DNA from: Terriglobia bacterium
GTDB lineage: Bacteria > Acidobacteriota > Terriglobia > Terriglobales > Acidobacteriaceae
NCBI GenBank assembly: GCA_020073495.1
Contig: JAIQFD010000007.1
Location: 3,891 to 67,890 of the forward strand
Length of the DNA: 64,000 nucleotides
Direction of reading: 5' to 3'
This document shows positions 3,146 through 57,122 of the stretch, piece by piece (the first letter of the stretch is position 1; each line of letters begins with the position of its first letter). A program made the translations under genes and the position numbers. The notes under the pieces were generated by a model that worked only from the letters and a program-made list of their open reading frames with translations, had not been told where the DNA came from and did no database searches.

Positions 3146-5392
3146 CTAAGAGGAAGCGACGGCCGCGCTCTTGCCGTTGGAGATCATGGCGTAAATCTCC
3201 TCGGCGGTGCAGACCTCGTAGTAGAGGCGGTCGGTCCAGGACCTCAGAGTGAAATCGGCGGCGTTGATGTGCGGGATGCGTCCTTCGCGCACGGCGATGA
3301 GGTGGAAGCCGCCGGAGGGCACCGGCACCATGCCGGCGTAGATCTTCGCCGAGGTCTCGCCCAGCACGGTGGGGAGGGGCAGCTCGCGTTCCTCCAGCGA
3401 GATCTCGGTCTTCAGCTTATTGAAGGCGGCCTGGTTGATGTGGATGCCGCCGATGTTGTAGCGCACCAGGAATTCGTCGGGGATGCCGCCGGTGTCGGCG
3501 TCGTTCACCGTCTGGAAGGAGAAGACGGTGAACGGGGTCTGGTTGCCGGACAGGTAGTTGCGCGCGCCCTTGCTGCAGGAGGAGAGGCGGTCGCTCTCGT
3601 TGAGCGCCTTGGAGATCATGATGCGGTTGGTGCCGTCCATGAGGTACATGGGCGGCGAGTCCTGGAAAGAAATGCCGATGCCCAGCTCCAGGACGGGTAA
3701 CCCCTGCTCCTGCGACTTGCGGTTATAGGCGCGGACGATGTCGATCATCTCCCTGGCCAGGACGCAGATCTGGGCGACTCCGAACTGGGCCTCGCCCTCG
3801 CGCTCGAACATGGCGAGGATGACGGCGTCGCCCTCGATGAAGACCTTGGTCGCGCCGTACTGCGGCAGCAGCTTGTTAATCGGGTCGTAGAAGTTCAAGG
3901 AGAAATACGAGGCCGGGTTGAGGCCGCGCTCGAACAGGGTGCGGGTGAGGGTGGTGGAGTCACGGATGTCGGCCTTGAGGACGACGTGGTCGATGACCTT
4001 CTCCTCGACCGGCTTCAGCTCCTCCGGCAGCAGGAACTCGTAGAGCGTGCTGTTGATGGAGGAGAGCTGGCGAAGGCGGTCATTGGCCAGGACATTGACC
4101 AGCTCGGTGGCCTCGTTGAGCGCCTCCAGGCGGCGCAGGTCGCGGTGGTAGCGCATGAAGTCCACCAGGAAGCGGCCGGCGATCTTGGCGCGGTCGCCGC
4201 CCTTCATGCCGTCGATACGCTTGATCGCGGTATGCAGGTTGGCCGGCGAGATCTTGCCGTGGCTCTCCAACAGGGCTTCCACGCGCTTGCGCTCGTCCTT
4301 GGAAATGAGCGCGTTCTTGAGCTGCTGGGCGTTGATGGGGGGCGAATACTGCGCCAGCAGAGGCACGACTTCGTAGGACGAGATGACGTGCCCCATGATG
4401 CCGGCGTTCTCCAGCGTGGTCTGCCACTCCTGGAGGACCGCCTTCTGGCCTTTGCCCTTGGGGGTGTTCTCGTCGGGAGCGCCGCCGGCCAGCAGCTCCT
4501 GGGCGTTGTCGGGCACGTTGAGCTGGTAATCGAGCGTGCCCTCGCTCTCGCCTTCCTTGAGCACGCCCAGGGCCTTCAGGAAAGAACAGGCGACCTCGAG
4601 CATGGTGCCGAAGCGGTCGGGATCGTTCTCGTAGTTGCCGAGCATGACGTAGTGCTCGGCGTTCAGGTAATCGTCGCGGCCGTCCTCGGTGAACAGCAGG
4701 CGGTTGAGGAAGAGATCGTACTCGTTCTTGTGATTCTCGCCGAAGAGGGAGCGGCGCATCTTTCCCAAGGTCTCTTTCTCAATGTCACGGACGGTGGTGA
4801 ACATGTCCTGGCCGACACGGCGCAGGACAGATCTCTTGTTGACCTGGAAGTGCCAGAAGCGCTCGCGAACCTCTACCGCCTTCTGTGGGTTGGGCTGGCG
4901 CGGGCCCTCGAAGGTCTTGACCTTGGCGCTGCAGCGCTGCAGGACCTCGTTGTATTGCGTGGTCAGCTCGGTGCGCAGGAGCTTGACCACGGCCAGGCGG
5001 AGAAGCAGATCCAGGTGCTGGTTGTCGTCCGTCTTGGCGCGATTCAGGGCGCCGACGTGCAGCTCGGACATCATGCGCTTGAATTCGGCGGGGTCGGCGG
5101 GCTTCTCCTTCGGCTGCTGCTCGGCGGGGCGGATGACGGAGGGCGGGCGGTAGCTGATGGTCTGCTCCTGGACCAGGAGCGGCTCCACGTTGCCGTACTT
5201 GGCGATGAGGCGGACGATGTGCTGGCGGGCAGCGTCGCAGAATTTATGGCTGAGCCAGACGTCGTGGCGGACGTTGTCCACGCCGGTGACCAGGCCCAGG
5301 AGCGGGAGCTCCGGCTTGTACGTCGCCAAGCTGAGCTGGCGAAGGTGCTCCTCGAGGTTGCCGCGCTGTAGAAACGAAAATGGCATTGCCAC
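3146..5392 (-). CDS. Large cytoplasmic protein with a C-terminal class III nucleotidyl-cyclase-like domain
   Basis: 748-codon ORF (GTG 5392 or ATG 5386). The segment VVLKADIRDSTTL...KVFIEGDAVILAMF...ELGIGISF...ISKALNESDRL has the layout and Asp positions of class III adenylyl/guanylyl cyclase cores. The N-terminal ~470 aa is unrecognised and has no TM segments. Confidence 0.6.
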   Translation of the reverse strand: MAMPFSFLQRGNLEEHLRQLSLATYKPELPLLGLVTGVDNVRHDVWLSHKFCDAARQHIVRLIAKYGNVEPLLVQEQTISYRPPSVIRPAEQQPKEKPADPAEFKRMMSELHVGALNRAKTDDNQHLDLLLRLAVVKLLRTELTTQYNEVLQRCSAKVKTFEGPRQPNPQKAVEVRERFWHFQVNKRSVLRRVGQDMFTTVRDIEKETLGKMRRSLFGENHKNEYDLFLNRLLFTEDGRDDYLNAEHYVMLGNYENDPDRFGTMLEVACSFLKALGVLKEGESEGTLDYQLNVPDNAQELLAGGAPDENTPKGKGQKAVLQEWQTTLENAGIMGHVISSYEVVPLLAQYSPPINAQQLKNALISKDERKRVEALLESHGKISPANLHTAIKRIDGMKGGDRAKIAGRFLVDFMRYHRDLRRLEALNEATELVNVLANDRLRQLSSINSTLYEFLLPEELKPVEEKVIDHVVLKADIRDSTTLTRTLFERGLNPASYFSLNFYDPINKLLPQYGATKVFIEGDAVILAMFEREGEAQFGVAQICVLAREMIDIVRAYNRKSQEQGLPVLELGIGISFQDSPPMYLMDGTNRIMISKALNESDRLSSCSKGARNYLSGNQTPFTVFSFQTVNDADTGGIPDEFLVRYNIGGIHINQAAFNKLKTEISLEERELPLPTVLGETSAKIYAGMVPVPSGGFHLIAVREGRIPHINAADFTLRSWTDRLYYEVCTAEEIYAMISNGKSAAVASS

Positions 5393-7369: not shown

Positions 7370-7831
7370 CTAGTCAGTCGCCGGGGTGTGCGCGCGCGAG
7401 ATCAGCAACCAGTTCTTGTCGATCTTCTGCCAGGTGCTGGTCATGCGATACTTATTGGACGAAAGCGGCTTGCCGTCGCGGGTGGCGTTGATGTGCGCGA
7501 CGTAGGTCACCACCACCACGTCACCCCCGCTGGGGCGGACCGTGATGTCACCCAGGGTGAGATCGGTGATCTGCAGGTGCTCGAAGTACTCCAGCGCCGC
7601 GAGCTTTTCGTGGATGCCGGTCGGACCGACATAGACGAACGTCGGCGCCACGTGCCGTTCCAGATCGCTCCAATCCTTTGCCTTCACCGTATCCCAGAAG
7701 AGCCGCTCCAGGTGCTCGCCACCGGTGGCGGAAGACCAGGCGCGGACCGGCTTGTCGCTCCACATGGTGCAGCCCGAGCAGAAGGTCAGGAGGAGGACAA
7801 CTGCACAGGTCAGCGCAGCGCGTGGCGTCAT
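7370..7831 (-). CDS. Lipoprotein with an NTF2/SnoaL-like (DUF4440-type) domain
   Basis: ATG at 7831 gives MTPRAALTCAVVLLLTFCSGC (lipobox). The longer ORF-track start at 7909 would run through the terminator hairpin at 7875-7903. Confidence 0.6.
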   Translation of the reverse strand: MTPRAALTCAVVLLLTFCSGCTMWSDKPVRAWSSATGGEHLERLFWDTVKAKDWSDLERHVAPTFVYVGPTGIHEKLAALEYFEHLQITDLTLGDITVRPSGGDVVVVTYVAHINATRDGKPLSSNKYRMTSTWQKIDKNWLLISRAHTPATD

Positions 7832-7874
7832 GCCGGCGATTGTACCGCACAGGAACGTAAGCCCGAAGGGTGAT

Positions 7875-7903
7875 TGAAAAAGCGCGGCACGGGCTGCCGC
7901 GCT
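7875..7903 (-). terminator. Intrinsic terminator after radical SAM paralog 1
   Basis: On the minus strand: AGCGCGGCA-gcccg-TGCCGCGCT (9-bp GC stem) followed by TTTTTCAATCA, 24 nt after the stop at 7927. Confidence 0.65.
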
Positions 7904-7926
7904 ATTCACAATCCACTACCCGGTCC

Positions 7927-9666
7927 TCAGCACTTCTTTCCGCAGATCTCCACCAGCTCCGGCTTGGCGCCATTGCCGTTGCCATTGCTCTTGGCCTTGG
8001 CGATCGCCGCGGTATCCAATTGGTTGAGCCGGGCCTCGAGCGGGACCGAGAACTTGCGCTCGATCTTCTCGCGGAAGACCGGCCCCGAGTTGTAGGCGCA
8101 GAAGGGGTAGATCAGTCCGTCGGGCGCCGAGTAGTGGATGACGCAGCGCTTCACGCGCTCGATGTCGTAATTGTAAGAATCCATGAAGTGCATGCACGAC
8201 ACCAGCAGGGTGCGGTAGCTGAACTTGCCGTCCATGCCGTCGCGGCCGAGCTTCTTGTCGGTAAAGCCCTGCAGGGTCTGGAGGAAGCGGGTGAAATCCA
8301 GCCCCGGCGGCGCGAACTCGGGCTTGAAGTGCTTGCGCAGCGAGTTCCAGGCGTCCAGCTTGTGGAAGAACTTGAAGTGCGCCTTCTCGGTCCTGGCGGC
8401 GATGCGGTCCATGTCGCGCAGGATCCCGGGCACGTCGATGAAGCGCGTCACCGGTACGGCCTTGCGGCTCTTCTCGTCCACGAACAGGTACGTCCCCAGC
8501 GAGCAGTGCGGATGGCAGGTCAGGGTGGTGATGGGCTCGCCGCGCATGGCCGAGACCAGGCGGGAGAACGGCGCCACGCAGGCCAGCGGGAACCAGTCGT
8601 CGTAGGTATCCAGCACGCCCGTCTGCTCCGATACGCAATGGGCCACGTCGGTCGAGGTGAATCGCTTGTCCGCCAGCTCGTTGCGGTTGATGCGCCCGGT
8701 AAAGGTCACGGGCTGGTACACGATGGCGGTGATCACGTCGATGTTGTCCAGCGCCAGTTGCAGGATCTTGCCGATCTCGTGGTCGTTCACGCCTTTGACG
8801 ATGGTGGGAACGAAGACGATCTTCATGCCCGCCTGGCGCGCGCTCTCGATGCACTTAAGCTTCATCTCGTAGAGCGACTCGCCGCGGGTGCGCTGGTAGA
8901 TCTCGTCGCAGGTACCGTCGAATTGCAGGTAGAGCGTGGTCAGGCCGTGGTCCCTGGCCTGGCGCGCGAAGGCGGGATCGGAGAGCAGGATGCCGTTGGT
9001 GGCGGCCTGCACGTGGCTGAAGCCCATCTCGCGCGCGGCAGCGCAGATTTCCATGAACTGCGGGTGGAGCGTGGGCTCACCGCCGGAAAACTGCACCACG
9101 CGCCCGGCCACCGGCTTCTCGTCGCGCAGGCGCTGGAGCATCCCCTTGATGGTCTCGAAATCCGGCTCGTAGAGGTAGCCCTGCACGTTGGCATTGGCGA
9201 AGCATACGGGGCAGGTCAGGTTGCAGCGGTTGGTCAGATCGATGTTGGCCAGGCCGGTGTGGGACATGTGCATGGAGCAGAGACCGCAGTCGTCGGGACA
9301 AATTGTGGCGTCTTGCACGGCGGGATTGGACAGGCCGCGGCCGTCGCCAAAGCTGAACTCCTCCGCCTTCAGGTACAGGCGGACGTCGGACCAGACCGTG
9401 TCCTTGAAATCGCCGTGGTCCGGGCAGGTCTTCTCCATCATGACCCGGCCGTTCTCTTCGAACAGGCGCGCGTCGATGACCCGGATGCATTCCGGGCAAA
9501 GCGACTGCGTGGTCTTGGGCAAGCCCTTTTGCAGCGGCTCGATGCGCGCACCGGTGTAGGTGGTGCGGGGCTGGAGGATGTTGAGTTCTTTCCCCGCCTT
9601 CACCGTCTTATGGCTTGCGACGCTCGGCATTGGTGTCTGGGTTTCCGGGATCGTCCGTGTGCTCAC
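7927..9666 (-). CDS. Radical SAM enzyme, Tes/GDGT-MAS-like architecture (paralog 1)
   Basis: GTG at 9666 lies 6 nt after AGGAGA; the ORF-track start at 9705 is also a GTG but has no SD. Motifs: CPECI...CPDHG knuckle, CPDDCGLC, IDLTNRCNLTCPVCFANA (CX3CX2C), FSGGEPTL, TCHPHCS, PFCAYN. C-terminal NGNGNG tail. Confidence 0.8.
   Translation of the reverse strand: MSTRTIPETQTPMPSVASHKTVKAGKELNILQPRTTYTGARIEPLQKGLPKTTQSLCPECIRVIDARLFEENGRVMMEKTCPDHGDFKDTVWSDVRLYLKAEEFSFGDGRGLSNPAVQDATICPDDCGLCSMHMSHTGLANIDLTNRCNLTCPVCFANANVQGYLYEPDFETIKGMLQRLRDEKPVAGRVVQFSGGEPTLHPQFMEICAAAREMGFSHVQAATNGILLSDPAFARQARDHGLTTLYLQFDGTCDEIYQRTRGESLYEMKLKCIESARQAGMKIVFVPTIVKGVNDHEIGKILQLALDNIDVITAIVYQPVTFTGRINRNELADKRFTSTDVAHCVSEQTGVLDTYDDWFPLACVAPFSRLVSAMRGEPITTLTCHPHCSLGTYLFVDEKSRKAVPVTRFIDVPGILRDMDRIAARTEKAHFKFFHKLDAWNSLRKHFKPEFAPPGLDFTRFLQTLQGFTDKKLGRDGMDGKFSYRTLLVSCMHFMDSYNYDIERVKRCVIHYSAPDGLIYPFCAYNSGPVFREKIERKFSVPLEARLNQLDTAAIAKAKSNGNGNGAKPELVEICGKKC
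7968..7988 (-). repeat. Short hexanucleotide (GTTGCC-type) tract encoding NGNGNG
   Basis: gccattgccgttgccattgct on the plus strand. It encodes the Asn-Gly repeat at the C-terminus of paralog 1. Confidence 0.7.
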
Positions 9667-9900
9667 GCATTTCTCCTGTGCTGTTCGCGCAGTGGGCGGA
9701 AACACAGCCGCCTTCGCGGCACACGCCGGCCCCTGCCATCGCTACAGGGTCGCGCAACCGGACGCGGACGCGATGTGACCGCACTCACATCACCACGTGA
9801 CGCCGGATACATGGGGCAGTGGAAAGCACACAGGGCGCAGCGAGTGGCAGGAAATTGCATCGAATGGCGCGAAAAAAACGACGCCGGAACCCGCGAAGGC

Positions 9901-9931
9901 AATAAAAAGGCCGCCGGAGGGACCGGCGGCC
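9901..9931 (-). terminator. Intrinsic terminator after radical SAM paralog 2
   Basis: On the minus strand: GGCCGCCGG-tccct-CCGGCGGCC (9-bp stem) followed by TTTTTATT, 20 nt after the stop at 9951. Confidence 0.8.
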
Positions 9932-9950
9932 TCAATCAGGAGGTCGGAAC

Positions 9951-12110
9951 CTAGTCGCCCGCGACCGGCTCCTCGACGTTCTCCACGGCCGGCTTGTGCC
10001 CGTTGCCGTTGCCGTTGCCGTTACCATTGCCGTTCCCGTTGGCGGGAGCGATGGTGGCCAGGGGCACGAAGCTCTCGGCGGTCTGGTCCTTGAGCACGTG
10101 CTTCTTGTACAGCTTCATCATCTCGGCGTGGTAGGCGGGGTCCTTCTCTTTCATCTTCTGGTCGCGCTGGCGGATCTTCTCTTCGCGCGAGTTCTTCGCG
10201 ATGCCCATCTTGTCGAGGTCCTGCTGTTCTTCCTCGGTGATGAGGTCGCGATTGAGCGTGTACACGCTCTCCCTCGGCGCTTCGATCTGCACCTTCTTGC
10301 CGCCGGCGAAGATCTCGTGCCGCCCGTGCTCGTCATACCACTTGGTCAGGGTGGCGGTCATGTGCATCTTCTCGATGATGTTCCGCCAGCCGACGCCGGT
10401 GTTATACGCGCAGAAGCTGATCTCGCCTTCCTGCGTGGCGTAAGGGATGATGCACTGCTCGGTGCGCCGGAAATCGTAGTTCCACAGGTCCTGGAACCAC
10501 ATACCGGCGACGAAGAGGATGTTCCACCGGTCCTTGCGGCGCTTCTCCACGTCCTCGATGGTGCGGTCGGCGGTGACCTTGCCGTACGCGCCGCTTTTCG
10601 CCTTCTTGCTGGCGCCGAAGCCCTTATCGAACTTCATGAGCAGGTCGAAGATGGTGAAGTGTGGCGTGGTCTTGAAGGGGTTGTAGTTGCGCATCACCGC
10701 CAGGGCCATGCCCAGCAGCGAGAGTTTGCGCCCGCGGCCGGCGTCGGTGACCTTGGCCACGTCCTTGGCGAGCTGGTCGGCGTCCAGGAAGGCGGTGATC
10801 GGCGCCGCCTCTTTCGTTTCCTTGTCCACCATGATGCCCATGCCCACGCCGCAGTTGGGATGGCAGCCGCAGGAGAGCTGGCCCCAGGTCTCCTGGGGGC
10901 CGTGGAGGTGGTCGGCCCAGTCGGAGAAGGTGCTCATGAACGACAGCGGGAACCAGTCTCGGGTCGGCTCGCCGATGCCCACCTGGTCCTTCACGTCGTG
11001 CGCCAGGTGCGCCAGGGTGTAGCGCTGCGCGGCGCGGCGTTCCTCGGTGATCTCCTCGTCTCGGCCGGTGAACGACACCGGCTGGAAGGAGCAGAAGCTG
11101 ATGACCTTGGGGTTATCAAGCGCGAACTTGATGATGCGCCCCACCTGCTCATTGTTGATGCCGTTGACGATGGTGGTGACCGGCACGATGTCCACCCCGG
11201 ACTCGTACAGGTTCTCGATCGCCTTCATCTTCACGTCGAACAGGTTGCCCACCTTGCGGTGCGCGTTGGCGGCGTTGCCGATGCCGTCGAACTGGAGATA
11301 AGCGTAACGCAGCCCGGCTTCCGCCGCCTGCTTGCAGAATTCCTTCGACTTGGCGAACTCGATGCCGTTGGTCGCCGCCTGCACCGAGTTGTAGCCCACC
11401 TTGCGCGAGTAGCGCACCGCGTCCAGGAAGTACGGCGACAGCGTGGGCTCGCCGCCGGAAAACTGCACCGACATCTGCCGCTTCGGCTTGATGCTGATGG
11501 CGTTGTCCAGCATCGTCTTGATCTCTTCCCACGTCAGCTCATGGACGAAGCCCACCTGGTTCGCGTCCATGAAGCACGGGTCGCACATCATATTGCAGCG
11601 GTTGGTGAGGTCGATGGTAAGGACGGCGCCGCGGCCGTGAGTGATGGTGGAGGTGCCGTGGTGATGCAGGTGCTCGTCGGAGTGGGAGCGCATGTCGCGT
11701 CCGGGGAAGCTCTCTTCCAGGTGACGGAACATCACCGGGTCGATGGACATGACATCCTCGAAATGACCGTGCTTGGGACAGTCCTTCACCATCAGGATCT
11801 TGCCGTCGCGCTCGATGACCTGGGCCTTGATCTCTCCCGGATGCTCCGTCATCAGGATGTCGAGCGGGACATCGCCGTTGAGGATCTGCTTGCGGATCTC
11901 GGGCACGCACTTGGGACACAGGGAGTCGGTGGCGCGCGGCCAGCCGAGCGGCGGCTTGGTCTTCTGATACGACTTCAGGAGCGGCTTCTCGGACCACTTG
12001 GGCGTGAAGGCCGGATTGGGGGAGATCTGGTTAAACCTCTCGAAAACCAACCAGGCCCCATTGGCCGCAATGGTCAACGCCTTCTCGAAGTACTTGATCG
12101 GCTTGTGCAT
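9951..12110 (-). CDS. Radical SAM enzyme, Tes/GDGT-MAS-like architecture (paralog 2, long charged C-terminal extension)
   Basis: ATG at 12110 with GGGAG 9 nt upstream. Motifs: CPKCV...CPKHGHF knuckle, IDLTNRCNMMCDPCFMDA (CX3CX2C), FSGGEPTL, SCGCHPNCG, SFCAYN. A ~140-aa K/E-rich tail ends in (NG)7. Confidence 0.8.
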   Translation of the reverse strand: MHKPIKYFEKALTIAANGAWLVFERFNQISPNPAFTPKWSEKPLLKSYQKTKPPLGWPRATDSLCPKCVPEIRKQILNGDVPLDILMTEHPGEIKAQVIERDGKILMVKDCPKHGHFEDVMSIDPVMFRHLEESFPGRDMRSHSDEHLHHHGTSTITHGRGAVLTIDLTNRCNMMCDPCFMDANQVGFVHELTWEEIKTMLDNAISIKPKRQMSVQFSGGEPTLSPYFLDAVRYSRKVGYNSVQAATNGIEFAKSKEFCKQAAEAGLRYAYLQFDGIGNAANAHRKVGNLFDVKMKAIENLYESGVDIVPVTTIVNGINNEQVGRIIKFALDNPKVISFCSFQPVSFTGRDEEITEERRAAQRYTLAHLAHDVKDQVGIGEPTRDWFPLSFMSTFSDWADHLHGPQETWGQLSCGCHPNCGVGMGIMVDKETKEAAPITAFLDADQLAKDVAKVTDAGRGRKLSLLGMALAVMRNYNPFKTTPHFTIFDLLMKFDKGFGASKKAKSGAYGKVTADRTIEDVEKRRKDRWNILFVAGMWFQDLWNYDFRRTEQCIIPYATQEGEISFCAYNTGVGWRNIIEKMHMTATLTKWYDEHGRHEIFAGGKKVQIEAPRESVYTLNRDLITEEEQQDLDKMGIAKNSREEKIRQRDQKMKEKDPAYHAEMMKLYKKHVLKDQTAESFVPLATIAPANGNGNGNGNGNGNGHKPAVENVEEPVAGD
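9999..10041 (-). repeat. Imperfect hexanucleotide tandem repeat (about 7 units) encoding (Asn-Gly)7
   Basis: cccgttgccgttgccgttgccgttaccattgccgttcccgttg on the plus strand, inside the 3' end of paralog 2. Confidence 0.8.
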
Positions 12111-12586
12111 TTACACACGCTCCCTATGGATCAGACCTGACAAAACACAGCGGACAGCACAACGGGGGACGACACACGCCCGCCGCAGCCATTCCGGACG
12201 TGTAGATGTCCATGTCCATTACACTTGTTACTGAACCCCCACCCCAACCGCCAAGCTATGAACGGAGTGTTTTGCAGGCTTAGCGGTGCCTCTATGCATT
12301 GAACGGCGATTCGAAGACGTCTCTAAGCCTTTGAAAATCAACGGCTATTGCTGAATCAGGAATATACACGCCGGATTTCGTCCCGCCAAGTTCTTACTTG
12401 GTTCCACCCAATCTCGGGGAGGGGCGAGGGTTAACCATCTCGCAATCGGAAGGGGGATTTCGCCTTGTGCGACCGAGGACTGCTCCTGCGACGGTGCGGG
12501 GCGCAAAGGAAAGGAGAGGATGCGGAGGCAAGCTGTTATCGGCAAAGGTGCCCGAGGGTTGCCGGAAGTAGAGTCGCAGCGGGATA

Positions 12587-14109: not shown

Positions 14110-14781
14110 CTACTGAGTTTGTTCTTCCTGGTCGTCGTGCGCGCCGTGGCGGCGGAGGATCTGGGGAAGATTCGAGGAAAAGGCGGAGCGCGGCATGACC
14201 GCGTCGCATCCGGCCTCCTGCGCCTTCATCTTCAGGTCACCCTGCACGTGGGAGACGAAGCCCAGGATGGAGGTCGTACCTTTCTTGAGCTTGGCGCGCA
14301 GCTTGGGGATGGTGGCCAACGGCTTGGCATTGGCGTTGTTCAAGTCGAAGATCACCAGGGATGGAACCTGCTGCCCATTCTGCTCGACGCGGTCGAGGAT
14401 ATCCTTCTCGGTCTTGACGAACTCGACCTTGACGTTGAGCTTGCGGGCCGTGTCCTGGATCTTGGTGAGGAAAAAGAGATCCTCGACGAAGGCGAAGATA
14501 CGGGTGGCGGCGTCTTCGCGGGCGGGCAGCGGCTCGATCTCGGGATGCTGGAAGAACTGGGATGTGAAGCCGCCGCGCGGGCGGAACTGGTTGCCGCCGT
14601 TGCCGTTCTGGGCGTTGCGGTAGCTGTGGTCCATGGGACCGACGAAAGGGGTGCCGCGCTGTCCGCGCCCGCTGCGTTTGCCGCCCGGCGGGTGCTGGGC
14701 GTGGCCCTGCGGTCCGCCATGCTTGCGGCGGCGCCGCTGACCCCCGCCGCGGTGGCCGGGCTGATTCGGTCCTTTGTTCAT
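14110..14781 (-). CDS. Atypical receiver-domain protein with an Arg/Gly-rich disordered N-terminus
   Basis: ATG at 14781. The first ~100 aa are RGG/Q/N-rich (GGGQRRRRKHGGPQGH...FRPRGGF). The CheY-like domain has ED, LVIFDLNN and GFVSH, but the conserved Lys position reads VMPRS. Confidence 0.65.
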   Translation of the reverse strand: MNKGPNQPGHRGGGQRRRRKHGGPQGHAQHPPGGKRSGRGQRGTPFVGPMDHSYRNAQNGNGGNQFRPRGGFTSQFFQHPEIEPLPAREDAATRIFAFVEDLFFLTKIQDTARKLNVKVEFVKTEKDILDRVEQNGQQVPSLVIFDLNNANAKPLATIPKLRAKLKKGTTSILGFVSHVQGDLKMKAQEAGCDAVMPRSAFSSNLPQILRRHGAHDDQEEQTQ

Positions 14782-15210
14782 TCGCTCTTGTTCCCCGGGG
14801 CCCTCATCATTTGCAGATGGAGCCGTCCTTCCGGCGTGTACCCGTGCGCATGTTCGCATTCAGGCGAAGATCGCAACGGCTGGGTCGCTGTCGAGAACTC
14901 ATTCGTCCGTCGAGCGCAGGGACATCAGCGCGCGGATGGCCAGCACGATGGGCGTGCGGCTGCTTGGAGGACGAAACGGATGATATCTGTCCTGGAAACC
15001 CGGCGCAAGGCCTGTTCCTGAACCTGCGCAGACGCCCCCGCGTCCGCGACAGTCCTATTCTACTACACCTGCAATCCTCCCAGAACGAGTGACCTTGGTC
15101 ATGCGGAACTATGTGTAGGCAGGTCCGCACTTTACCCCCGACCATTACGCCGGTCACTTGCGTCAAGTAACCACAGGTCTAAGACTAGGGTCACGGGAAG
15201 GCAAGAAGTT

Positions 15211-17163
15211 TTGGGATGGAGCGTTGTGAGTAAAGGGCGACAAAACCCGCTGGCTGTGGTAATCGGCGCAATGGTATTGCTCTTGTGCGCGCCTGCGCGG
15301 GCGGAAGAGCCTGTCGATGTTGCGGTGCCCGTGGACTGGAGCCACCAGCACATGATCATCACCAACCGGGCGACCCTCCAGGAGCGGATGGCGGCTTCGC
15401 GGGACCCTCGCGCACTGACCAATGCGGTGCGGCGGACGCAGGCGATGATGGCCGCCGGCCAGCAAAACCGCAACGCCAAACACTACGGCGCGGGATCGTC
15501 CCGCAAGATGCAGCGAGACTGGAGCGTTTCCATGGGGGCCGGGCGGGTGGCGCCCGGCATGTCGCCGGCCAAGTACGGCTTCGCAGTGTCCTCCACCTTC
15601 CTGATCGCGAGTTGCACGACCGACTACGCGGTGTATGGCCTCGATGTGGCGGGCACGGCGAACACGCCCGGGGGCCAGGCGAACCTGGTCGGTCTGCGCA
15701 ACCTTTACAGCGGCAGTGCCGGGTACTGTGGGTTGGCCAGCATCGCCGCCTCCGGCGCATCGCGCGTCGGCAACGTGGTCACAATCACCACGACCGCGCC
15801 GCATGGCTTTACGGCCGGCATGCAGGTGGCCATCGCCGGAGTGGCCAACGTGAGTTTCAACGGGACATTCACGGTGGCTTCCGTGCCGAGCGCGATCGCG
15901 TTCACATACGCGCAGGTCGCGGCCAACGCAACCAGCGGCGGCGGCACGGCGTCGTTCGCCTCCGCGTCGGTGGCCTTCGCCTACAACATCACGACCGCAG
16001 CGGGCGGACGCATCCTGACCTCGCCCAGCATCTCGCTGGACGGAAGGAAGATCGCCTTCGTCGAGAGCACGGGGACGGCGTCCATCTTCCACGTGCTGAC
16101 GCTCGACCCGTGCGTCACTTCGACGGCCGGGTGCAGCAACAACGGGACCAGCGCGACCAGCTCGGCGGTGCCGGGGAATGGGAATGCGGCCTCGATGGTC
16201 TCGATCACGTATTCGCATTCGAGCAATACGCTCTCGTCGCCGTGGATCGATTACTCGCCGGCGGGTGATGCGGCGTACGTCGGCGATGATAACGGCACCC
16301 TCTACCGCATCAAGGGGGTGTTCTACGGCGCTCCCGCGCTGGACGCCACCTTCGGCGGAAGCGGGTCCATTGTCGTCAGCAGTGGCTTGCAGCTACTGGG
16401 CCCGGTACTGGCACAAGGTTGGCTGATGGTGGGTGACAGCAGCGGGACGATCAAAGCAGTCCTGGCTTCCAGCCCGTTCACGGTGGCGTCTTCGACCTTT
16501 GCCGTGGGGACTGGCATGGGGGACCCGCCGGTTGTGGACGCGTCGACTACAGGAGTGTTATCGGTATTCGAGACAGCGGCCAGCGGTTTCACGATAGAGC
16601 AAGGCATCTTTAACACCAGTTCGCAGCAGTTCACCAGCACGACGTCGGTGAGCATCGGCCACAGTACGGCCGGCAATGCTCATGCTCCGGCGCTGGATAA
16701 CAACTACTTCCTGGGTACGATCGATGCGACCCATGGATTCATCTATGCCTGCGGCGCCCTGGGAGGTTCCCAGCACCCCGCCCTGTACAGAGTGGGATTC
16801 ACTGCCGGGTCGCCTCCGACCGTGCGCGCTACCTCCGTCAGAGGCCCGACGCTTGCCAACAGCAACGCAGAGTGCTCTCCTCTCACCGAGTTCGCGAACC
16901 CGAACATCGCGGTCAAGGACTTGCTTTTCGTAGGCGATACCAGCGGCGAGGTGCAGTCGTTCGACATCACCGGCGCCATGCCGGGCAACGCGGTGGCCAC
17001 AGTGGCGGAGCCGGGCGGCACCAGCGGCATCATCGTGGATACCACGCAATTGAGTTCGAACCAGGGATCGAGCATCTACTTTACGACCTTGTCGAATGCG
17101 GGCGGCAACTGCGGCGCGAACAACTACTGCGCCATCAAGCTGACGCAGAACGAATTGCAGTAG
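15211..17163 (+). CDS. Secreted S/T/G/A-rich hypothetical protein (possibly beta-propeller-like)
   Basis: Signal peptide VVIGAMVLLLCAPARAEEP (start TTG 15211 or GTG 15226). 650 aa. The antisense ORF 15163-16218 is R/G/A-rich and was rejected. Confidence 0.65.
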   Translation: MGWSVVSKGRQNPLAVVIGAMVLLLCAPARAEEPVDVAVPVDWSHQHMIITNRATLQERMAASRDPRALTNAVRRTQAMMAAGQQNRNAKHYGAGSSRKMQRDWSVSMGAGRVAPGMSPAKYGFAVSSTFLIASCTTDYAVYGLDVAGTANTPGGQANLVGLRNLYSGSAGYCGLASIAASGASRVGNVVTITTTAPHGFTAGMQVAIAGVANVSFNGTFTVASVPSAIAFTYAQVAANATSGGGTASFASASVAFAYNITTAAGGRILTSPSISLDGRKIAFVESTGTASIFHVLTLDPCVTSTAGCSNNGTSATSSAVPGNGNAASMVSITYSHSSNTLSSPWIDYSPAGDAAYVGDDNGTLYRIKGVFYGAPALDATFGGSGSIVVSSGLQLLGPVLAQGWLMVGDSSGTIKAVLASSPFTVASSTFAVGTGMGDPPVVDASTTGVLSVFETAASGFTIEQGIFNTSSQQFTSTTSVSIGHSTAGNAHAPALDNNYFLGTIDATHGFIYACGALGGSQHPALYRVGFTAGSPPTVRATSVRGPTLANSNAECSPLTEFANPNIAVKDLLFVGDTSGEVQSFDITGAMPGNAVATVAEPGGTSGIIVDTTQLSSNQGSSIYFTTLSNAGGNCGANNYCAIKLTQNELQ

Positions 17164-17464: not shown

Positions 17465-18196
17465 TTAGAGCGACAGTCTGCGACGAACCACGCCCGCCAG
17501 ACCGAAGAGGCCGCTTCCCAGGAGCATCAGGCTGCCCGGCTCGGGGACAACTTGTTGCTCGGGGACGAACTCGAGGGTCCCGCCGATCGCAAACTGGTTG
17601 TCACCGCTGGCGGCAGCATTGATGGCGGCTACCGCGGCGGCGTCCAGCGAAATCAGGATCTGACTGCCATTATCGGCGGCCGACGACAGGTAACTCCCGT
17701 ACAGGATCCCGCCACCGAGATCGCCGTAAATGCCAACCTGGCCGGAGCCATCAGCGGTCAGCGTGCCGTTCGGCGTGCTGACGTCGAACACGCTGTAGAG
17801 TGCCGTCGGGTTCGGATTGACGTAGCCGCCCACAGGAGGATTTCCCACGTTCAAGATCGCGCTGCTGACGTGCTGCCCGCCCAGATTGGCCAGATCAAAC
17901 GCAAAGAAATCGTTCACCAAGTACGCGAGGCCGCAGTCGCTCGCGCTGCAATAGCCAGCGGCGTAGTTGGTGTTGCTGGCCTGGTGAGAGCCGGTGCTGT
18001 CCCACCAGCCGGTGGAATACGCATCGATGACGACCTTTCCTTCGCCGACCGTCAGAATCAACTGCTGGAATCCATACGGCGTGGCACCGAAGAGCAGCTG
18101 TGTCTGGGTGTCAGCCGAGGCTAAGGGGGCCGCCAACAAACCTACCGTGAGAACCAAGAAAGCAAGGAGACCAAGCCGTCGCATAGTCGTATGCAC
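17465..18196 (-). CDS. PEP-CTERM sorting-domain secreted protein
   Basis: Signal peptide MRRLGLLAFLVLTVGLLAAPLASA. C-terminus VPEPGSLMLLGSGLFGLAGVVRRRLSL (PEP motif + TM + basic tail). Confidence 0.9.
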   Translation of the reverse strand: MHTTMRRLGLLAFLVLTVGLLAAPLASADTQTQLLFGATPYGFQQLILTVGEGKVVIDAYSTGWWDSTGSHQASNTNYAAGYCSASDCGLAYLVNDFFAFDLANLGGQHVSSAILNVGNPPVGGYVNPNPTALYSVFDVSTPNGTLTADGSGQVGIYGDLGGGILYGSYLSSAADNGSQILISLDAAAVAAINAAASGDNQFAIGGTLEFVPEQQVVPEPGSLMLLGSGLFGLAGVVRRRLSL

Positions 18197-18368
18197 CTCT
18201 TCTGCTTGATTCAGTGCATTTTGGGGGCCACACGTGACAGCTTAGTTTTCAAGAAGATAGCGGAAAGTTGCGGGAATCGCCGTGCAATTCATTTCTACAA
18301 TGTTGCAACGCGTTTCACCCGCTGACGCAGAGTGGAGTCGCAGCGACGCGTGTCTTGGGAGCGGAAGT

Positions 18369-18926
18369 TTATCGCGCATACTCGCCGGAACTTACGCTGG
18401 CCGGCTGCTGCAAGGCATCGAGTTCGCGCTGCGCTTGTTGGCGGTCGGTCACAAGATTCTTCAGGGTCTCGCGTTCCCGCTCGAGAGCGGCGTTCAGCGA
18501 CTTGATGACGTAGTCCTTATTGGTGGCCGCGAGCTGCTCCTGGAGGTCCTGGATCTTCGAGGTCAATGCAGATTCCTGCTGCTGCAAACCTGCGATCTTG
18601 GCGCGCAGTTCTTCCATCGGATCGGGCGTGTTCGCAGGTGAGGAATCCGGCTCAGGCTGTGCGGCCTGCGCCGGAGTGTCAGAGGTGGACGGAGCGCCGG
18701 CAGCGGGGCCCGCACCTTGCTGGGTCGCGGCCTGGTCCGCCGATGGTTGCTGGTCTTGGGAACGGGCCGGGAGATCGTCGTCGGTAACGACACGGCGCGC
18801 TTGGGGCTTGGCCTTCTGCCGTTCCTGCTTGGCCAGGTCACCGAGTGACGGGGTCTGCTGCCCCGCTGCCACGATGCCGGCCAACAGGATGGTCAGAATC
18901 CCGAGGACCAGCGCGCGCCATGTCAT
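18369..18926 (-). CDS. Membrane-anchored coiled-coil protein
   Basis: N-terminal TM WRALVLGILTILLAGIVAAG, a low-complexity Q/A/P linker, then coiled coil MEELRAKIAGLQQQESALTSKIQDLQEQL... Lies directly downstream of the pilin-like operon. Confidence 0.6.
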   Translation of the reverse strand: MTWRALVLGILTILLAGIVAAGQQTPSLGDLAKQERQKAKPQARRVVTDDDLPARSQDQQPSADQAATQQGAGPAAGAPSTSDTPAQAAQPEPDSSPANTPDPMEELRAKIAGLQQQESALTSKIQDLQEQLAATNKDYVIKSLNAALERERETLKNLVTDRQQAQRELDALQQPASVSSGEYAR

Positions 18927-18954
18927 ATCGAAGCCACCTTTCCGTTCGCCTTCG

Positions 18955-21492: not shown

Positions 21493-21511
21493 TTGTTCCC
21501 CACCACAAGCG

Positions 21512-22639
21512 TTACTGGTAGCGGTCGCGGAAACTCAGATTCCTCGGACTGACCGCAGTCCCGAGGATGACTCGTTCAAAGCCGCGCCGCAGCAGTCCCT
21601 GCCGGGCGGAGCGGGCGGAAACCCAGACGTTGATCTTGCGAATCTGATTGGGGGTGAAGCCGCTCCCAATCGGGTCGGGCAGATTGTTGGTCGCCACCCC
21701 CGCGTTGTCATCGAAGACGTCGAAGGTGAGCTGCACGTTCTCAATGTTCTCCGCCACCGGATTGGGGACGTGGGCGCCGTCCTGGCGCATCAGCCGGGGG
21801 GCGTTGGGATTGGTGTTATCGATGCTGTAGGTCGCCATCAGGATCCGCGACATAGTGAGCTGCGGATTCTTGCAAACAGCCGGAGGGACCGGATTGGCGA
21901 ATGGCCCCAGTGAGGCGACGGTGCCGACCGCGGCATTGGACTGGTTGAACAAGAGGGGATCGTTATCCTTGAAAGTGATAGTGCCGGCAGCCGCGTTGAA
22001 AGCCGTCACCGTGCCGGCGGCACAGCCGTTGACGTTGCAGAGCTGTAACACGTCACCGACAGAGATGCCCGCGGCGGGGTCGGCCAACGGCGGGTTCATC
22101 GTCGCCGGGTTCACGGTCACCACTACGGAGGTGCCGGGGGTAACCTTGACGTCAGTCGCACACGCCTGACCGGTGTTGAAGTTGCTGTCGATATACGCGG
22201 TCAACACGGTGTCGCTGTTGACGCCCAGGATGTTTGGCCCGACGCCGGGACCAGGAGTGAGGGCGTATAGCCGATTGTTCGGAAAAGTGGCCCCCGCCAG
22301 ATAACACCCCGCGCTGGAACAGCCGTACACCTCATTGACCGAGCCCGCCCCGGAGGGAAGCTGGATGCCGCCGGTGGCGAACCCGCCCTGCGCCGCCATG
22401 CTGAGATCGTGGGCCATGAGGTTGACCGCCGCGCGGGCGTTCTGCTGCATCTCGGCGCGCTGGACCACCAGGTAACTGGCATCCATGCCCTGTTGGAAGA
22501 GAGTGACGGCGGACGCCAGGACGATCAACCCGAGGGCCATGGCGATCAGCACCTCGACCAGGGTGAAACCCGCCGCAGCATGGCGCTGGCCGGGCCGAAC
22601 AACGCGGATGGGAGCGTGCTTAACGGTATCTTGAGACAT
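21512..22639 (-). CDS. PilW-like prepilin-type minor pilin
   Basis: Prepilin cleavage/methylation motif AAGFTLVEVLIAMALGLIVLASAV followed by ...QRAEMQQNARAAVNLMAHDL. Confidence 0.75.
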   Translation of the reverse strand: MSQDTVKHAPIRVVRPGQRHAAAGFTLVEVLIAMALGLIVLASAVTLFQQGMDASYLVVQRAEMQQNARAAVNLMAHDLSMAAQGGFATGGIQLPSGAGSVNEVYGCSSAGCYLAGATFPNNRLYALTPGPGVGPNILGVNSDTVLTAYIDSNFNTGQACATDVKVTPGTSVVVTVNPATMNPPLADPAAGISVGDVLQLCNVNGCAAGTVTAFNAAAGTITFKDNDPLLFNQSNAAVGTVASLGPFANPVPPAVCKNPQLTMSRILMATYSIDNTNPNAPRLMRQDGAHVPNPVAENIENVQLTFDVFDDNAGVATNNLPDPIGSGFTPNQIRKINVWVSARSARQGLLRRGFERVILGTAVSPRNLSFRDRYQ

Positions 22640-23177
22640 AGCTCACGACCACGAATGGTTTCCACTGCACTTTGTTGCTGGTGTAACGGACCGACACGGT
22701 CAGCTTGCGCAGGTCGGGGTTGACAGCGCCGCCAGGTAACAGCACCTGCTCGATAAGGATCTGGCGCTGGAAGTTGGAAAAGGGAGTGACGACGTCATCG
22801 GGCGTGTTCAGCAGGCCGTCGGGGCCGGGAAAAACCATGGAATCGAGGGCTGGACCATCGTCGGCAGTGCCGAGGAGGCCGTCGTTGCCGGCGACGAGCA
22901 TGTTCTGCCAACCGTCCAGGAAGATGCCCGTGCCCGATGGATCGGACACGTTGCGGATCTGATCGAAGGTGATCTGTTGCGTGTTGCGCGCCGCGTAGAT
23001 GCTCTCCAGCGTCTCCTGCGCCTTCTGCTTGGCGATCAGGTCTTCTTGCGCGAACTGCATAGTGGCAACGCCCTGGGCAAACAGCGCCAGCAGGGCGAGG
23101 ATGCCGATGGCCAGGATCAGCATGGAGACCATGACCTCGATGAGCGTGAACCCACTTTGCGTCTTCCTTGGGTTCAT
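22620..23177 (-). CDS. PilV-like prepilin-type minor pilin
   Basis: MNPRKTQSGFTLIEVMVSMLILAIGILALLAL. The ATG at 23177 overlaps the upstream stop (ATGA). Confidence 0.75.
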   Translation of the reverse strand: MNPRKTQSGFTLIEVMVSMLILAIGILALLALFAQGVATMQFAQEDLIAKQKAQETLESIYAARNTQQITFDQIRNVSDPSGTGIFLDGWQNMLVAGNDGLLGTADDGPALDSMVFPGPDGLLNTPDDVVTPFSNFQRQILIEQVLLPGGAVNPDLRKLTVSVRYTSNKVQWKPFVVVSYVSRYR

Positions 23178-33263: not shown

Positions 33264-33543
33264 GCTTACCGCCTCCGCCGCTGCTGGGCCTGGTTCATGT
33301 GGACGATCGCGGTCTGGACCGCCAGACACTGAGCGAGCGGTAGTGTACGGTGCGCTGCCCGGGTTTTCAACAACAGCCGCCGCCACACGACCTGCGATAC
33401 GGGAGGCGCAGCAAGTCAAGCGCTCAAATCCGGCGGTTCTCCGCAGAACCTTCGGGCCGCCGGAAGCGTACTTCTGCACAGGAGATGCGGCAGCGGGGCA
33501 GCACCTGTTGCGGCAGCTATAATCGACCTTTCAGGAATCCTTG

Positions 33544-56412: not shown

Positions 56413-56431
56413 CTCGGATGTCGCTCCCTGC

Positions 56432-57112: not shown

Positions 57113-57122
57113 GAGATCGCGA

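What the first reader, a model, noticed from the sequence alone, without database searches (positions are those of the whole stretch)
7927..12110. Tandem pair of Tes/GDGT-MAS-like radical SAM enzymes with Asn-Gly repeat tails: candidate bacterial membrane-spanning-lipid synthases
Seen in sequence:
- Two divergent paralogs (579 and 719 aa) lie head-to-tail on the minus strand. Each is followed by its own GC-rich hairpin and T-run, so they appear to be separately transcribed.
- Both share a CPxC...CPxHG knuckle, TNRCNxxCxxCF (CX3CX2C), FSGGEPTL, a CxHPxC motif and a C-terminal (P/S)FCAYN motif.
- Paralog 1 keeps an extra CPDDCGLC motif. Paralog 2 has His-rich HSDEHLHHHG at that position and a ~140-aa K/E-rich extension.
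- Both end in NGNG...KPxxVE tails encoded by imperfect hexanucleotide tracts.

Established knowledge: from memory, this architecture is that of archaeal tetraether lipid synthase (Tes / GDGT-MAS, MJ0619-type).

Inference: bacterial homologues have been proposed, but to my knowledge not proven, as the C-C coupling enzymes behind iso-diabolic acid / branched GDGT lipids of Acidobacteria. A duplicated, differentiated pair could mean two substrate specificities or a heteromer.
Basis: partly seen in the sequence, partly recalled or inferred. Interest (0 to 1): 0.7.

Follow-up and report, generated by a model that had tools for sequence, protein, structure and literature searches.

The report
Two tetraether-synthase-like lipid enzymes in Acidobacteria
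Two neighbouring genes in a soil acidobacterium (order Terriglobales) encode relatives of the archaeal enzyme that joins lipid tails into membrane-spanning lipids; both types are already published but unproven candidates for making the bacterial brGDGT / iso-diabolic-acid lipids used as palaeoclimate markers.

Summary
Two radical SAM genes lie head-to-tail on the minus strand: P1 (7927-9666, 579 aa) and P2 (9951-12110, 719 aa). Every listed motif, both hairpins and both hexanucleotide Asn-Gly tracts are present.

- **P1** is a canonical Tes. It passes the NCBIfam Tes equivalog cut-off (574 vs 450 bits), is 44% identical to GDGT-MAS and keeps all its metal ligands.
- **P2** belongs to a separate, deep subfamily. 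It scores 326 bits (below cut-off) and has lost the N-terminal auxiliary [4Fe-4S] ligands. It keeps the rubredoxin site, the radical SAM cluster, the conserved C-terminal Cys, Met439 and Tyr459. Its model matches 7TOM with TM 0.80.
- **Not a recent duplication.** P2-type genes occur at about 600 loci in species-representative genomes, 72-77% identical in the 80 loci kept, and nearly always without P1 nearby. P1-type genes are less conserved.
- **No supporting context.** No lipid genes flank either gene.

Both types are already named in the literature as Solibacter usitatus Tes homologues (Acid_5929, Acid_2410) and proposed brGDGT / iso-diabolic-acid synthases. None has been tested biochemically. 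This is a new member of a known candidate class; the subfamily split refines the experiment to run.

The parts
7927..9666 (-). P1: canonical Tes / GDGT-MAS-type radical SAM enzyme, 579 aa (GTG start)
   Evidence: NCBIfam NF045702 574 bits vs cut-off 450. 7TOL E 1.8e-135. All GDGT-MAS metal ligands kept. Identical 579-aa protein P0271 in the database.
9673..9677 (-). AGGAG ribosome-binding site, six bases before the P1 GTG start
   Evidence: Read from the sequence.
9268..9300 (-). P1 CPDDCGLCSMH: Cys123, Cys127, Cys130 and His133, which align to the [4Fe-4S]N ligands C73/C77/C80/His of GDGT-MAS
   Evidence: Alignment to MJ0619. Invariant in 34 P1-type proteins. Ligand identities from PMC9433317.
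9202..9225 (-). P1 radical SAM CX3CX2C motif (Cys148, Cys152, Cys155)
7969..7988 (-). P1 Asn-Gly linker encoded by an imperfect hexanucleotide tract (3.3 copies)
   Evidence: Tandem Repeats Finder. Copy number varies among orthologues.
7881..7903 (-). Hairpin plus T-run after the P1 stop codon; intrinsic-terminator-like
   Evidence: Fold -24.4 kcal/mol, z -3.0.
9951..12110 (-). P2: divergent Tes-like radical SAM enzyme, 719 aa, of the acidobacterial subfamily that lacks the N-terminal auxiliary cluster
   Evidence: NF045702 326 bits, below the 450 cut-off. 7TOL E 2.2e-63. AlphaFold2 pTM 0.81. Foldseek 7TOM TM 0.80. Orthologues 72-92% identical.
12030..12104 (-). P2 N-terminal helix (residues 3-27), conserved and amphipathic; absent from MJ0619
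   Evidence: Block pLDDT 80-96. Hydrophobic moment 0.46. Conserved in orthologues.
11655..11684 (-). P2 His/Asp-rich motif H143-S-D145-E-H-L-H149-H-H151-G152, in place of the [4Fe-4S]N Cys motif
   Evidence: H143, D145, H149, H151 and G152 are invariant in 14 orthologues.
11574..11597 (-). P2 radical SAM CX3CX2C motif (Cys172, Cys176, Cys179)
9954..10358 (-). P2 C-terminal extension (residues 585-719): conserved K/E-rich helices, variable linker, conserved terminal E-x-V-x-G-D
10000..10041 (-). P2 Asn-Gly linker encoded by a hexanucleotide tract (7 copies)
   Evidence: The 92%-identical orthologue P0001 has 3 NG units; the 8-aa length difference lies within this linker.
9907..9933 (-). Hairpin (11 bp, 9 G-C) plus T-run after the P2 stop codon; intrinsic-terminator-like
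   Evidence: Fold -24.1 kcal/mol, z -5.3.
7370..7909 (-). DUF4440 / SnoaL-like protein with a lipoprotein-like N-terminus (true start probably downstream of 7909). A recurrent downstream neighbour of P2, or of P1 where P1 is present.
   Evidence: Pfam. Synteny in L012, L045, L050, L081 and L082. No functional link is shown.

Best explanation
Both genes encode Tes/GDGT-MAS-family radical SAM enzymes. They most likely join the terminal carbons of two iso-branched (iso-C15) lipid tails, producing iso-diabolic-acid-type membrane-spanning lipids, the core of brGDGTs.

Mechanism, by homology with GDGT-MAS:
1. The CX3CX2C [4Fe-4S] cluster cleaves SAM.
2. The 5'-deoxyadenosyl radical abstracts a hydrogen from a tail-terminal methyl.
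3. The substrate radical is parked as a C-S bond on the C-terminal [4Fe-4S] cluster.
4. A second SAM cleavage activates the second tail, and the C-C bond forms.

P1 is a canonical Tes with all four metal sites. P2 is a member of a separate, strongly conserved acidobacterial subfamily. It keeps the catalytic core: the radical SAM cluster, the C-terminal cluster residues, Met439, Tyr459 and the rubredoxin site. It has replaced the surface N-terminal [4Fe-4S] cluster with a His/Asp motif. It has also gained an N-terminal amphipathic helix, a 22-aa insert in the rubredoxin knuckle and a C-terminal extension, probably for membrane or partner contact.

The two genes are independent units, probably separately terminated, and not an obligate pair.

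Shown here: family placement, ligand conservation, fold, distribution and synteny. Inferred: substrate, product, and the roles of the P2-specific parts.
For: - **Family placement.** Both have Pfam Radical_SAM plus Zn_ribbon_HMPTM. NF045702 (Tes) is the top NCBIfam hit for both, and P1 is above the cut-off. 7TOL/7TOM is the only full-length PDB match.
- **Ligands (numbering from PMC9433317).** P1 keeps C9/C12/C33/H36, C73/C77/C80/H83, C98/C102/C105, C338/C455/C470, M439 and Y459. P2 keeps all of these except positions 73/77/80/83.
- **The lost cluster may be dispensable.** The Lloyd paper places the C-S intermediate on the C-terminal cluster. It describes the rubredoxin site and [4Fe-4S]N as surface sites of unclear role. 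Losing the latter need not abolish the chemistry.
- **Fold.** The P2 model has pTM 0.81 and TM 0.80 to 7TOM.
- **Strong constraint.** P2 orthologues are 72-77% identical in 80 species genomes of Terriglobales and Bryobacterales. In the same loci MutY is 44-59%, RlpA 43-63% and DUF4440 26-38% identical.
- **Distribution fits the lipid.** The named ones fall in lineages corresponding to subdivisions 1 and 3, where iso-diabolic acid is a common membrane lipid (title of PMC3131667, as cited).
- **Literature.** Tails of iso-fatty acids and phytanyl chains are structurally identical at the coupling site (PMC8941075). GDGT-MAS binds ester-linked E. coli phospholipids (PMC9433317). A search for Tes homologues led to S. 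usitatus, which makes up to 66% brGDGTs. Koribacter, with a Tes homologue only, makes iso-diabolic tetraesters, as cited in PMC13023045.
Against: - No bacterial Tes homologue has been tested genetically or biochemically (PMC11868695; review PMC13459092).
- Neither gene has lipid-biosynthesis neighbours in the window or in related loci.
- P2 fails the curated Tes cut-off and lacks one cluster.
- Sahonero-Canavesi et al. found Tes homologues in only 3 of 14 iso-diabolic-acid-producing Acidobacteria at E<=1e-50 and identity>=30%, and proposed an alternative pathway. P2 is 31% identical to MJ0619 and Acid_2410 is 30.1% identical to MA_1486. P2-type proteins therefore sit at that identity threshold and may have been missed; this is an inference.
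- S. usitatus has a P2-type gene but no detectable free iso-diabolic acid.
- Radical SAM enzymes are oxygen-sensitive, and most Terriglobales are aerobes.
- The identity of the three Cys ligands of the C-terminal cluster is my inference from conservation. It was not read from coordinates.
Confidence: 0.68

Rival explanations
1. Division of labour with different chemistry. P1 is the tail-to-tail coupling enzyme. P2 performs another radical modification of lipid tails, such as intramolecular macrocyclisation, an H-shaped cross-link (brGMGT) or ring formation, rather than making the membrane-spanning bond.
For: P2 is only 31% identical to GDGT-MAS and 33% to P1. It fails the Tes equivalog cut-off. 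It lacks a cluster and carries extra domains. GDGT-MAS itself makes both macrocyclic archaeol and GDGT from one active site.
Against: - P2 keeps Met439, Tyr459 and the conserved C-terminal Cys set tied to the C-S coupling intermediate.
- P2-type is the only Tes-like gene reported for Edaphobacter aggregans (32% identity), which makes abundant iso-diabolic acid.
- P2-type is far more widespread than P1-type at its locus. A modifying enzyme would then usually lack its presumed partner.
- The known archaeal ring and cross-link enzymes (Grs, Gms) are described as separate radical SAM enzymes in the 2026 review.
Confidence: 0.18
2. P1 and P2 form an obligate heteromeric synthase. P2 would be a cluster-poor scaffold or membrane-anchoring subunit and P1 the catalytic subunit.
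For: Adjacent or near-adjacent same-strand arrangement in the window, L081, L104, L030, L093, L082, L083 and L160. The two proteins have complementary features: P2 has the amphipathic helix and extension, and P1 has the full cluster set.
Against: - 79 of 80 P2 loci have no P1-type gene within 6 kb.
- In S. usitatus the two genes are far apart (Acid_5929 and Acid_2410).
- A Bryobacteraceae P1 locus has no P2 within 10 kb.
- Each gene has its own terminator-like hairpin.
- P2 keeps an intact radical SAM motif and the catalytic residues, so it does not look like a dead subunit.
Confidence: 0.06
3. One or both act on a non-lipid substrate, for example the pterin methylation still attached to this family in some annotations, or a TrsS-like role.
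For: JGI names many homologues '7,8-dihydro-6-hydroxymethylpterin dimethyltransferase'. NF045646 (TrsS) is the second or third NCBIfam hit. There is no lipid gene context.
Against: - Lloyd et al. could not reproduce the pterin methylase activity and found a long hydrophobic lipid tunnel.
- TrsS scores of 336 and 214 bits are far below the 490 cut-off.
- Methanopterin is not known from Acidobacteria (general knowledge).
Confidence: 0.05

Closest known systems
Archaeal tetraether synthase Tes / GDGT-MAS (MJ0619, MA_1486; PDB 7TOL/7TOM; NCBIfam NF045702)
   Same: P1: 44% identity over about 500 aa, all four metal sites, above the equivalog cut-off. P2: same overall fold (TM 0.80), rubredoxin site, radical SAM cluster, conserved C-terminal Cys set, Met439 and Tyr459.
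   Different: The host is a bacterium with ester-linked, iso-branched fatty-acid lipids rather than archaeol. Both proteins have N-terminal extensions and low-complexity C-terminal tails that MJ0619 lacks. P2 also lacks C73/C77/C80/H83, has a 22-aa insert between the two rubredoxin knuckles and a 135-aa C-terminal extension, and scores below the family cut-off.
Candidatus Solibacter usitatus Tes homologues Acid_5929 (545 aa) and Acid_2410 (714 aa), proposed brGDGT synthases (Halamka et al., PMC10087280 Table S5; Chen et al. 2022)
   Same: The same two types by length and by identity to MA_1486: 40% (P1-type) and 30% (P2-type). The functional hypothesis is the same.
   Different: In S. usitatus the two genes are far apart; here they are adjacent. 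The papers treat them simply as two homologues. In the papers read here I found no mention of the cluster loss or the subfamily split.
Bacterial membrane-spanning lipid synthase Mss (Thermotoga maritima, Thermoanaerobacter ethanolicus; PMC13159169)
   Same: A radical SAM enzyme shown to couple fatty-acid tails into diabolic and iso-diabolic acids. This is the same proposed product class.
   Different: Described as only remotely related to Tes. No mss homologues were found in Acidobacteria genomes, and mss is so far restricted to anaerobes. No Mss sequence was available here for a direct comparison.

Membership tests
Tes / GDGT-MAS (NF045702, IPR034474) | Score above the curated NCBIfam equivalog cut-off (450 bits) | tested here: inconclusive
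   P1 scores 574.3 bits and passes. P2 scores 326.2 bits and fails. The result is split: P1 is a member by this criterion and P2 is not.
Tes / GDGT-MAS (NF045702, IPR034474) | Radical SAM CX3CX2C cluster motif | tested here: met
   P1 has C148/C152/C155 and P2 has C172/C176/C179, aligned to MJ0619 C98/C102/C105. Pfam PF04055 is significant in both.
Tes / GDGT-MAS (NF045702, IPR034474) | N-terminal rubredoxin-like CX2C...CX2H iron site | tested here: met
   Both align to C9/C12/C33/H36 and hit PF23545 Zn_ribbon_HMPTM. P2 has 42 rather than 20 residues between the two knuckles.
Tes / GDGT-MAS (NF045702, IPR034474) | N-terminal auxiliary [4Fe-4S] cluster ligated by C73, C77, C80 and a conserved His | tested here: inconclusive
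   P1 meets it (C, C, C, H). P2 does not (H, H, S, T at those columns). The loss is shared by all 14 P2 orthologues aligned and by other representatives of its clade.
Tes / GDGT-MAS (NF045702, IPR034474) | C-terminal auxiliary [4Fe-4S] cluster region with Met439 and Tyr459 (both fully conserved in archaeal homologues) | tested here: met
   Both keep M439 and Y459 and the family-conserved C338, C455 and C470. That these three Cys are the ligands is inferred from conservation, not read from coordinates.
Tes / GDGT-MAS (NF045702, IPR034474) | Overall four-domain fold including the lipid-binding C-terminal domain | tested here: met
   The P2 model (pTM 0.81) matches 7TOM with TM 0.80 normalised to the target, E 1e-30. 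P1 was not modelled but aligns to 7TOL over residues 57-558 with E 1.8e-135.
Tes / GDGT-MAS (NF045702, IPR034474) | Catalysis of tail-to-tail Csp3-Csp3 coupling of membrane lipids | not testable with these tools
   Requires expression or in vitro assay with lipid LC-MS. No bacterial homologue has been tested, according to PMC11868695 and PMC13459092.
TrsS radical SAM (seleno)protein (NF045646) | Score above the cut-off of 490 bits | tested here: not met
   P1 scores 335.8 bits and P2 213.8 bits.
Mss membrane-spanning lipid synthase (Thermotoga / Thermoanaerobacter) | Sequence homology to the confirmed Mss proteins (six conserved blocks) | not tested
The literature reports no mss homologues in the Acidobacteria genomes examined.

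The most novel reading that the evidence does not exclude
The P2-type protein, not the canonical Tes, is the long-sought iso-diabolic-acid synthase of aerobic Acidobacteria. P2-type means: no N-terminal cluster, a His/Asp motif in its place, an amphipathic N-terminal helix and a C-terminal extension. It would couple ester-linked iso-C15 phospholipid tails with a reduced cofactor set of two [4Fe-4S] clusters plus the rubredoxin iron. The patchily distributed P1-type would be an accessory enzyme for a different substrate pool or condition, such as ether lipids or low oxygen. This would explain why screens at >=30% identity found 'Tes' in only 3 of 14 iso-diabolic-acid producers. It would also give a better gene marker for brGDGT-precursor producers in soils.
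Probability: 0.3. Interest if true: 0.75.

Novelty: new member of a known kind. Interest (0 to 1): 0.45.

Why it matters
brGDGTs are among the most widely used terrestrial palaeotemperature and pH proxies. The enzyme that makes their membrane-spanning carbon skeleton in Acidobacteria has not been demonstrated.

This locus holds both published candidate types side by side. The comparison made here shows they are two distinct subfamilies:
- One is core and very strongly conserved, but lacks an iron-sulfur cluster of the archaeal enzyme.
- The other is canonical but occurs patchily.

That split has two practical uses:
- **Gene screens.** It suggests why published homology screens disagree, and that a single Tes query with a 30% identity cut-off is inadequate for environmental gene surveys.
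- **Experiments.** It tells experimenters which constructs to test separately.

The hypothesis itself dates from 2022. The gain is refinement, not discovery.

Tried and rejected
- **Recent tandem duplication: rejected.** In a neighbour-joining tree P1 groups with MJ0619-like canonical sequences. P2 groups with other sequences lacking the N-terminal cluster. The tree is distance-based, without bootstrap, and long-branch effects are possible.
- **Conserved operon: rejected.** Adjacency was found in only 1 of 80 P2-centred loci and 3 of about 16 P1-centred loci.
- **Functional context from neighbours: nothing found.** The window neighbours are MutY, an AhpC-like redoxin, DUF4440, RlpA and HIT. 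The rest of the window has no PlsA/Ger, elb or Grs-like genes. Clustering ORFs around 17 P1-type loci gave no recurrent lipid gene; TauE occurred in 5 loci.
- **Horizontal transfer of P1 judged by composition: no signal.** GC3 is 0.90 for P1 and 0.92 for P2.
- **RNA elements near the genes: none.** Two Rfam matches lie far below their gathering scores.
- **Transmembrane segments: none.** The maximum 19-residue hydropathy is 1.4 for P1 and 0.9 for P2.
- **Genotype versus lipid phenotype for cultured strains: failed.** Supplementary tables of Zeng 2022 and Sahonero-Canavesi 2022 either held no strain-level Tes data or were not available. The single genome-collection scan returned mostly metagenome-assembled genomes; Acidipila rosea was the clearest cultured strain.
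- **Asn-Gly tract as a functional or phase-variable element: not supported.** It is in frame and changes by whole codon pairs. It is absent from 83 of 120 P2-type and 102 of 120 P1-type tails.

Full report
**Observation**

The window is a 61-66% GC segment. By best protein hits it comes from a member of the Terriglobales, phylum Acidobacteriota.

Two large ORFs lie head-to-tail on the minus strand. The first is 7927-9705. It most likely starts at GTG 9666, six bases after an AGGAG, giving 579 aa. An identical 579-aa protein, P0271, is in the public collection. The second is 9951-12110 and encodes 719 aa. I call them P1 and P2. They are 33% identical over 537 residues.

Tandem Repeats Finder confirms the hexanucleotide tracts that encode the Asn-Gly runs: 7969-7988 with 3.3 copies and 10000-10041 with 7 copies. 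Each stop codon is followed within about 20 nt by a G+C-rich hairpin and a T-run. The folds are -24.1 kcal/mol (z -5.3) and -24.4 kcal/mol (z -3.0). Separate transcription is inferred from the hairpins alone.

**Family placement**

Both proteins carry Pfam Radical_SAM and the Zn_ribbon_HMPTM domain. For both, the best NCBIfam model is NF045702, 'tetraether lipid synthase Tes'. P1 scores 574 bits against a cut-off of 450. P2 scores only 326 bits.

The only full-length match among solved structures is GDGT-MAS of Methanocaldococcus jannaschii (7TOL/7TOM). The E-values are 1.8e-135 for P1 and 2.2e-63 for P2. The next hits (MoaA, PqqE, SkfB, viperin) cover only the radical SAM core.

An AlphaFold2 model of P2 was built from 68 sequences and has pTM 0.81 and mean pLDDT 76. 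It matches 7TOM with a TM-score of 0.80 normalised to the target, against 0.47 for MoaA. TrsS, the next NCBIfam family, is far below its cut-off.

**Metal sites**

Lloyd et al. (PMC9433317) describe four sites in GDGT-MAS:
- a rubredoxin-like iron (C9, C12, C33, H36);
- a surface N-terminal [4Fe-4S] cluster (C73, C77, C80 and a His);
- the radical SAM cluster;
- a C-terminal [4Fe-4S] cluster with the labile ligand Met439.

The C-terminal cluster lies next to both lipid pockets and carries the C-S intermediate. Met439 and Tyr459 are fully conserved in archaeal homologues.

I rebuilt the MJ0619 sequence from the alignment and aligned it with P1, P2 and 26 representatives.
- P1 keeps every one of these residues.
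- P2 keeps all except the four N-terminal cluster ligands, where it has H, H, S, T inside HSDEHLHHHG.
- Across the family the Cys that stay conserved in the C-terminal part are C338, C455 and C470. C438 is not conserved. I take those three plus Met439 as the C-terminal cluster ligands. This is an inference from conservation.

The catalytic core defined by the archaeal work is therefore intact in both proteins. The cluster that P2 lost is one whose role Lloyd et al. left open.

**P2-specific features**

In 14 orthologues (76% mean column identity) the following are conserved:
- H143, D145, H149, H151 and G152 are invariant.
- An N-terminal helix (residues 3-27) is conserved. It has block pLDDT 80-96 and a hydrophobic moment of 0.46.
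- The 135-residue C-terminal extension is conserved up to a variable linker. After the linker comes a conserved terminal E-x-V-x-G-D.

P2 also has 42 rather than 20 residues between the two rubredoxin knuckles.

The Asn-Gly run is that variable linker. It ranges from 0 to 8 copies and is replaced by Pro/Ala-rich sequence in many orthologues. The 92%-identical orthologue P0001 is 8 residues shorter within this linker (3 NG units against 7). At least two NG copies occur in 37 of 120 P2-type tails and 18 of 120 P1-type tails. Neither protein has a transmembrane segment.

**Distribution and synteny**

The best 80 are all Acidobacteriota. They are almost all labelled Terriglobia lineages: Acidobacteriaceae, Bryobacterales, Korobacteraceae, Acidipila rosea and an Edaphobacter MAG. 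One MAG is labelled Blastocatellia. Identity to P2 is 72-77%. In the same loci MutY is 44-59%, RlpA 43-63% and DUF4440 26-38% identical. P2 is thus the most constrained of the genes compared in its neighbourhood.

Only 1 of the 80 loci (L030) has a P1-type gene within 6 kb. Several loci (L012, L045, L050) read P2, DUF4440, MutY. That is the window's order without P1.

The closest relative (L081, P2 92% identical) keeps the tight P2-P1-DUF4440 order. Two other Terriglobales contigs have P1 downstream of P2, 3.7 kb away (L082) and 7.3 kb away (L083), with unrelated genes in between.

From the P1 side, 3 of about 16 metagenome loci with enough upstream sequence have P2 nearby. One of them, L104, is a tight tandem. 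A Bryobacteraceae P1 locus has none.

A neighbour-joining tree places P1-type sequences with MJ0619-like canonical sequences. It places P2-type sequences with other sequences lacking the N-terminal cluster, including a divergent Terriglobus roseus protein. A 55%-identical, shorter P2-like group is abundant in MAGs labelled Thermoanaerobaculia.

The pair is therefore not a recent duplication and not a conserved operon. It is a core gene (P2) with an accessory canonical Tes (P1) that sits next to it in a subset of Terriglobales. Codon composition gives no sign of recent transfer.

**Gene context**

No gene in the 64-kb window, and no recurrent neighbour of P1-type genes elsewhere, is a recognisable lipid-biosynthesis gene. 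No Rfam family is credibly matched around the genes.

**Literature**

- Zeng et al. 2022 reported 456 bacterial Tes homologues and proposed a role in brGDGT synthesis. They noted a 32%-identical homologue in Edaphobacter aggregans and 40-42%-identical ones in Solibacter and Koribacter.
- Chen et al. 2022 used the 40% homologue to pick S. usitatus, which proved to make up to 66% brGDGTs.
- Halamka et al. list both S. usitatus homologues: Acid_5929 (545 aa, 40.2% identical to MA_1486) and Acid_2410 (714 aa, 30.1%). They propose that 'one or both' condense iso-C15 diethers. These correspond to my P1 and P2 types.
- Sahonero-Canavesi et al. found no Mss in Acidobacteria. They found Tes in only 3 of 14 iso-diabolic-acid producers at E<=1e-50 and >=30% identity, and suggested another pathway. 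P2 is 31% identical to MJ0619. P2-type proteins therefore sit right on that threshold.
- A 2025 study states that the function of bacterial Tes homologues is not experimentally confirmed. A 2026 review describes them only as bioinformatic detections.
- A 2025 paper I could not read is cited as showing that Koribacter (Tes homologue only) makes iso-diabolic tetraesters and S. usitatus (Tes plus Ger) makes brGDGTs. As cited, this is correlative.

**Conclusion**

The suggestions of a differentiated duplicate or a heteromer are not supported.

The best explanation (confidence about 0.68) is that both are lipid tail-coupling radical SAM enzymes using the GDGT-MAS mechanism on iso-branched bacterial lipids.

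The most interesting reading still open (probability about 0.3) is that the strongly conserved P2-type, which lacks the N-terminal cluster, is the real iso-diabolic-acid synthase of aerobic Acidobacteria. P1-type would then be an accessory enzyme.

I rate the finding a new member of a known kind, with interest 0.45. It concerns an important open question, but the candidates have been known since 2022. What is added here is a sharper definition of the two subfamilies.

Noticed in passing
window 7930-7950 (-), and P1-type orthologues P0277-P0310: After the low-complexity linker, many P1-type proteins end in a Cys pair (CGSC, CGGC, CGTC). Window P1 ends ...PELVEICGKKC. MJ0619 has no such tail. 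It could be an extra redox or metal-binding tail.
   Followed up: no
window 9954-9974 (-): All P2-type orthologues aligned end in a conserved E-x-V-x-G-D (here EEPVAGD) after the variable linker. The model shows the tail as disordered. It looks like a short docking motif.
   Followed up: partly
P0138 (Terriglobus roseus WP_014786616.1): A third Tes-like type, 624 aa and 39-40% identical to P2. In the alignment it lacks the N-terminal cluster Cys and also the equivalents of C338, C455, Y459 and C470. Its function is probably different.
   Followed up: partly
L163-L165 and P0405-P0524: A P2-like subfamily of about 625 aa, 55% identical to P2, with the same His motif but no K/E-rich helices. It is abundant and 82-86% conserved in soil MAGs labelled Thermoanaerobaculia.
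   Followed up: partly
database annotations of homologues: Many homologues are still named '7,8-dihydro-6-hydroxymethylpterin dimethyltransferase' by JGI. This is the older MJ0619 assignment that Lloyd et al. could not reproduce. NCBI names P1-type proteins 'tetraether lipid synthase Tes' and P2-type proteins only 'radical SAM protein'.
   Followed up: yes
window 12111-12586: A non-coding gap of about 480 nt lies between P2 and the divergent small ORF and RlpA gene. It has one weak sigma-70-like site (12389-12361) and no Rfam match. Conservation across loci was not examined.
   Followed up: partly
window 17465-23770 (-): A PEP-CTERM protein (17465-18196) lies next to a type IV pilin-like cluster: an 845-aa PilX_N protein and three N_methyl prepilins at 18955-23770. 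Similar pilin genes lie between P1 and MutY in L082 and L083.
   Followed up: no
window 3146-5392 (-), 15211-17163 (+), 14110-14859 (-): Three ORFs of 748, 650 and 249 aa have no Pfam hit. The 748-aa and 249-aa ORFs have gene-like codon bias (GC3 0.92 and 0.82); the 650-aa ORF did not pass that filter.
   Followed up: no
window 32622-33479 (-) and 55012-60239 (-): A GvpL/GvpF gas-vesicle-protein homologue sits among signalling genes. Separately, there is a trehalose synthesis pair: TreT-like GT1 and a GT20 trehalose-phosphate-synthase-like gene.
   Followed up: no
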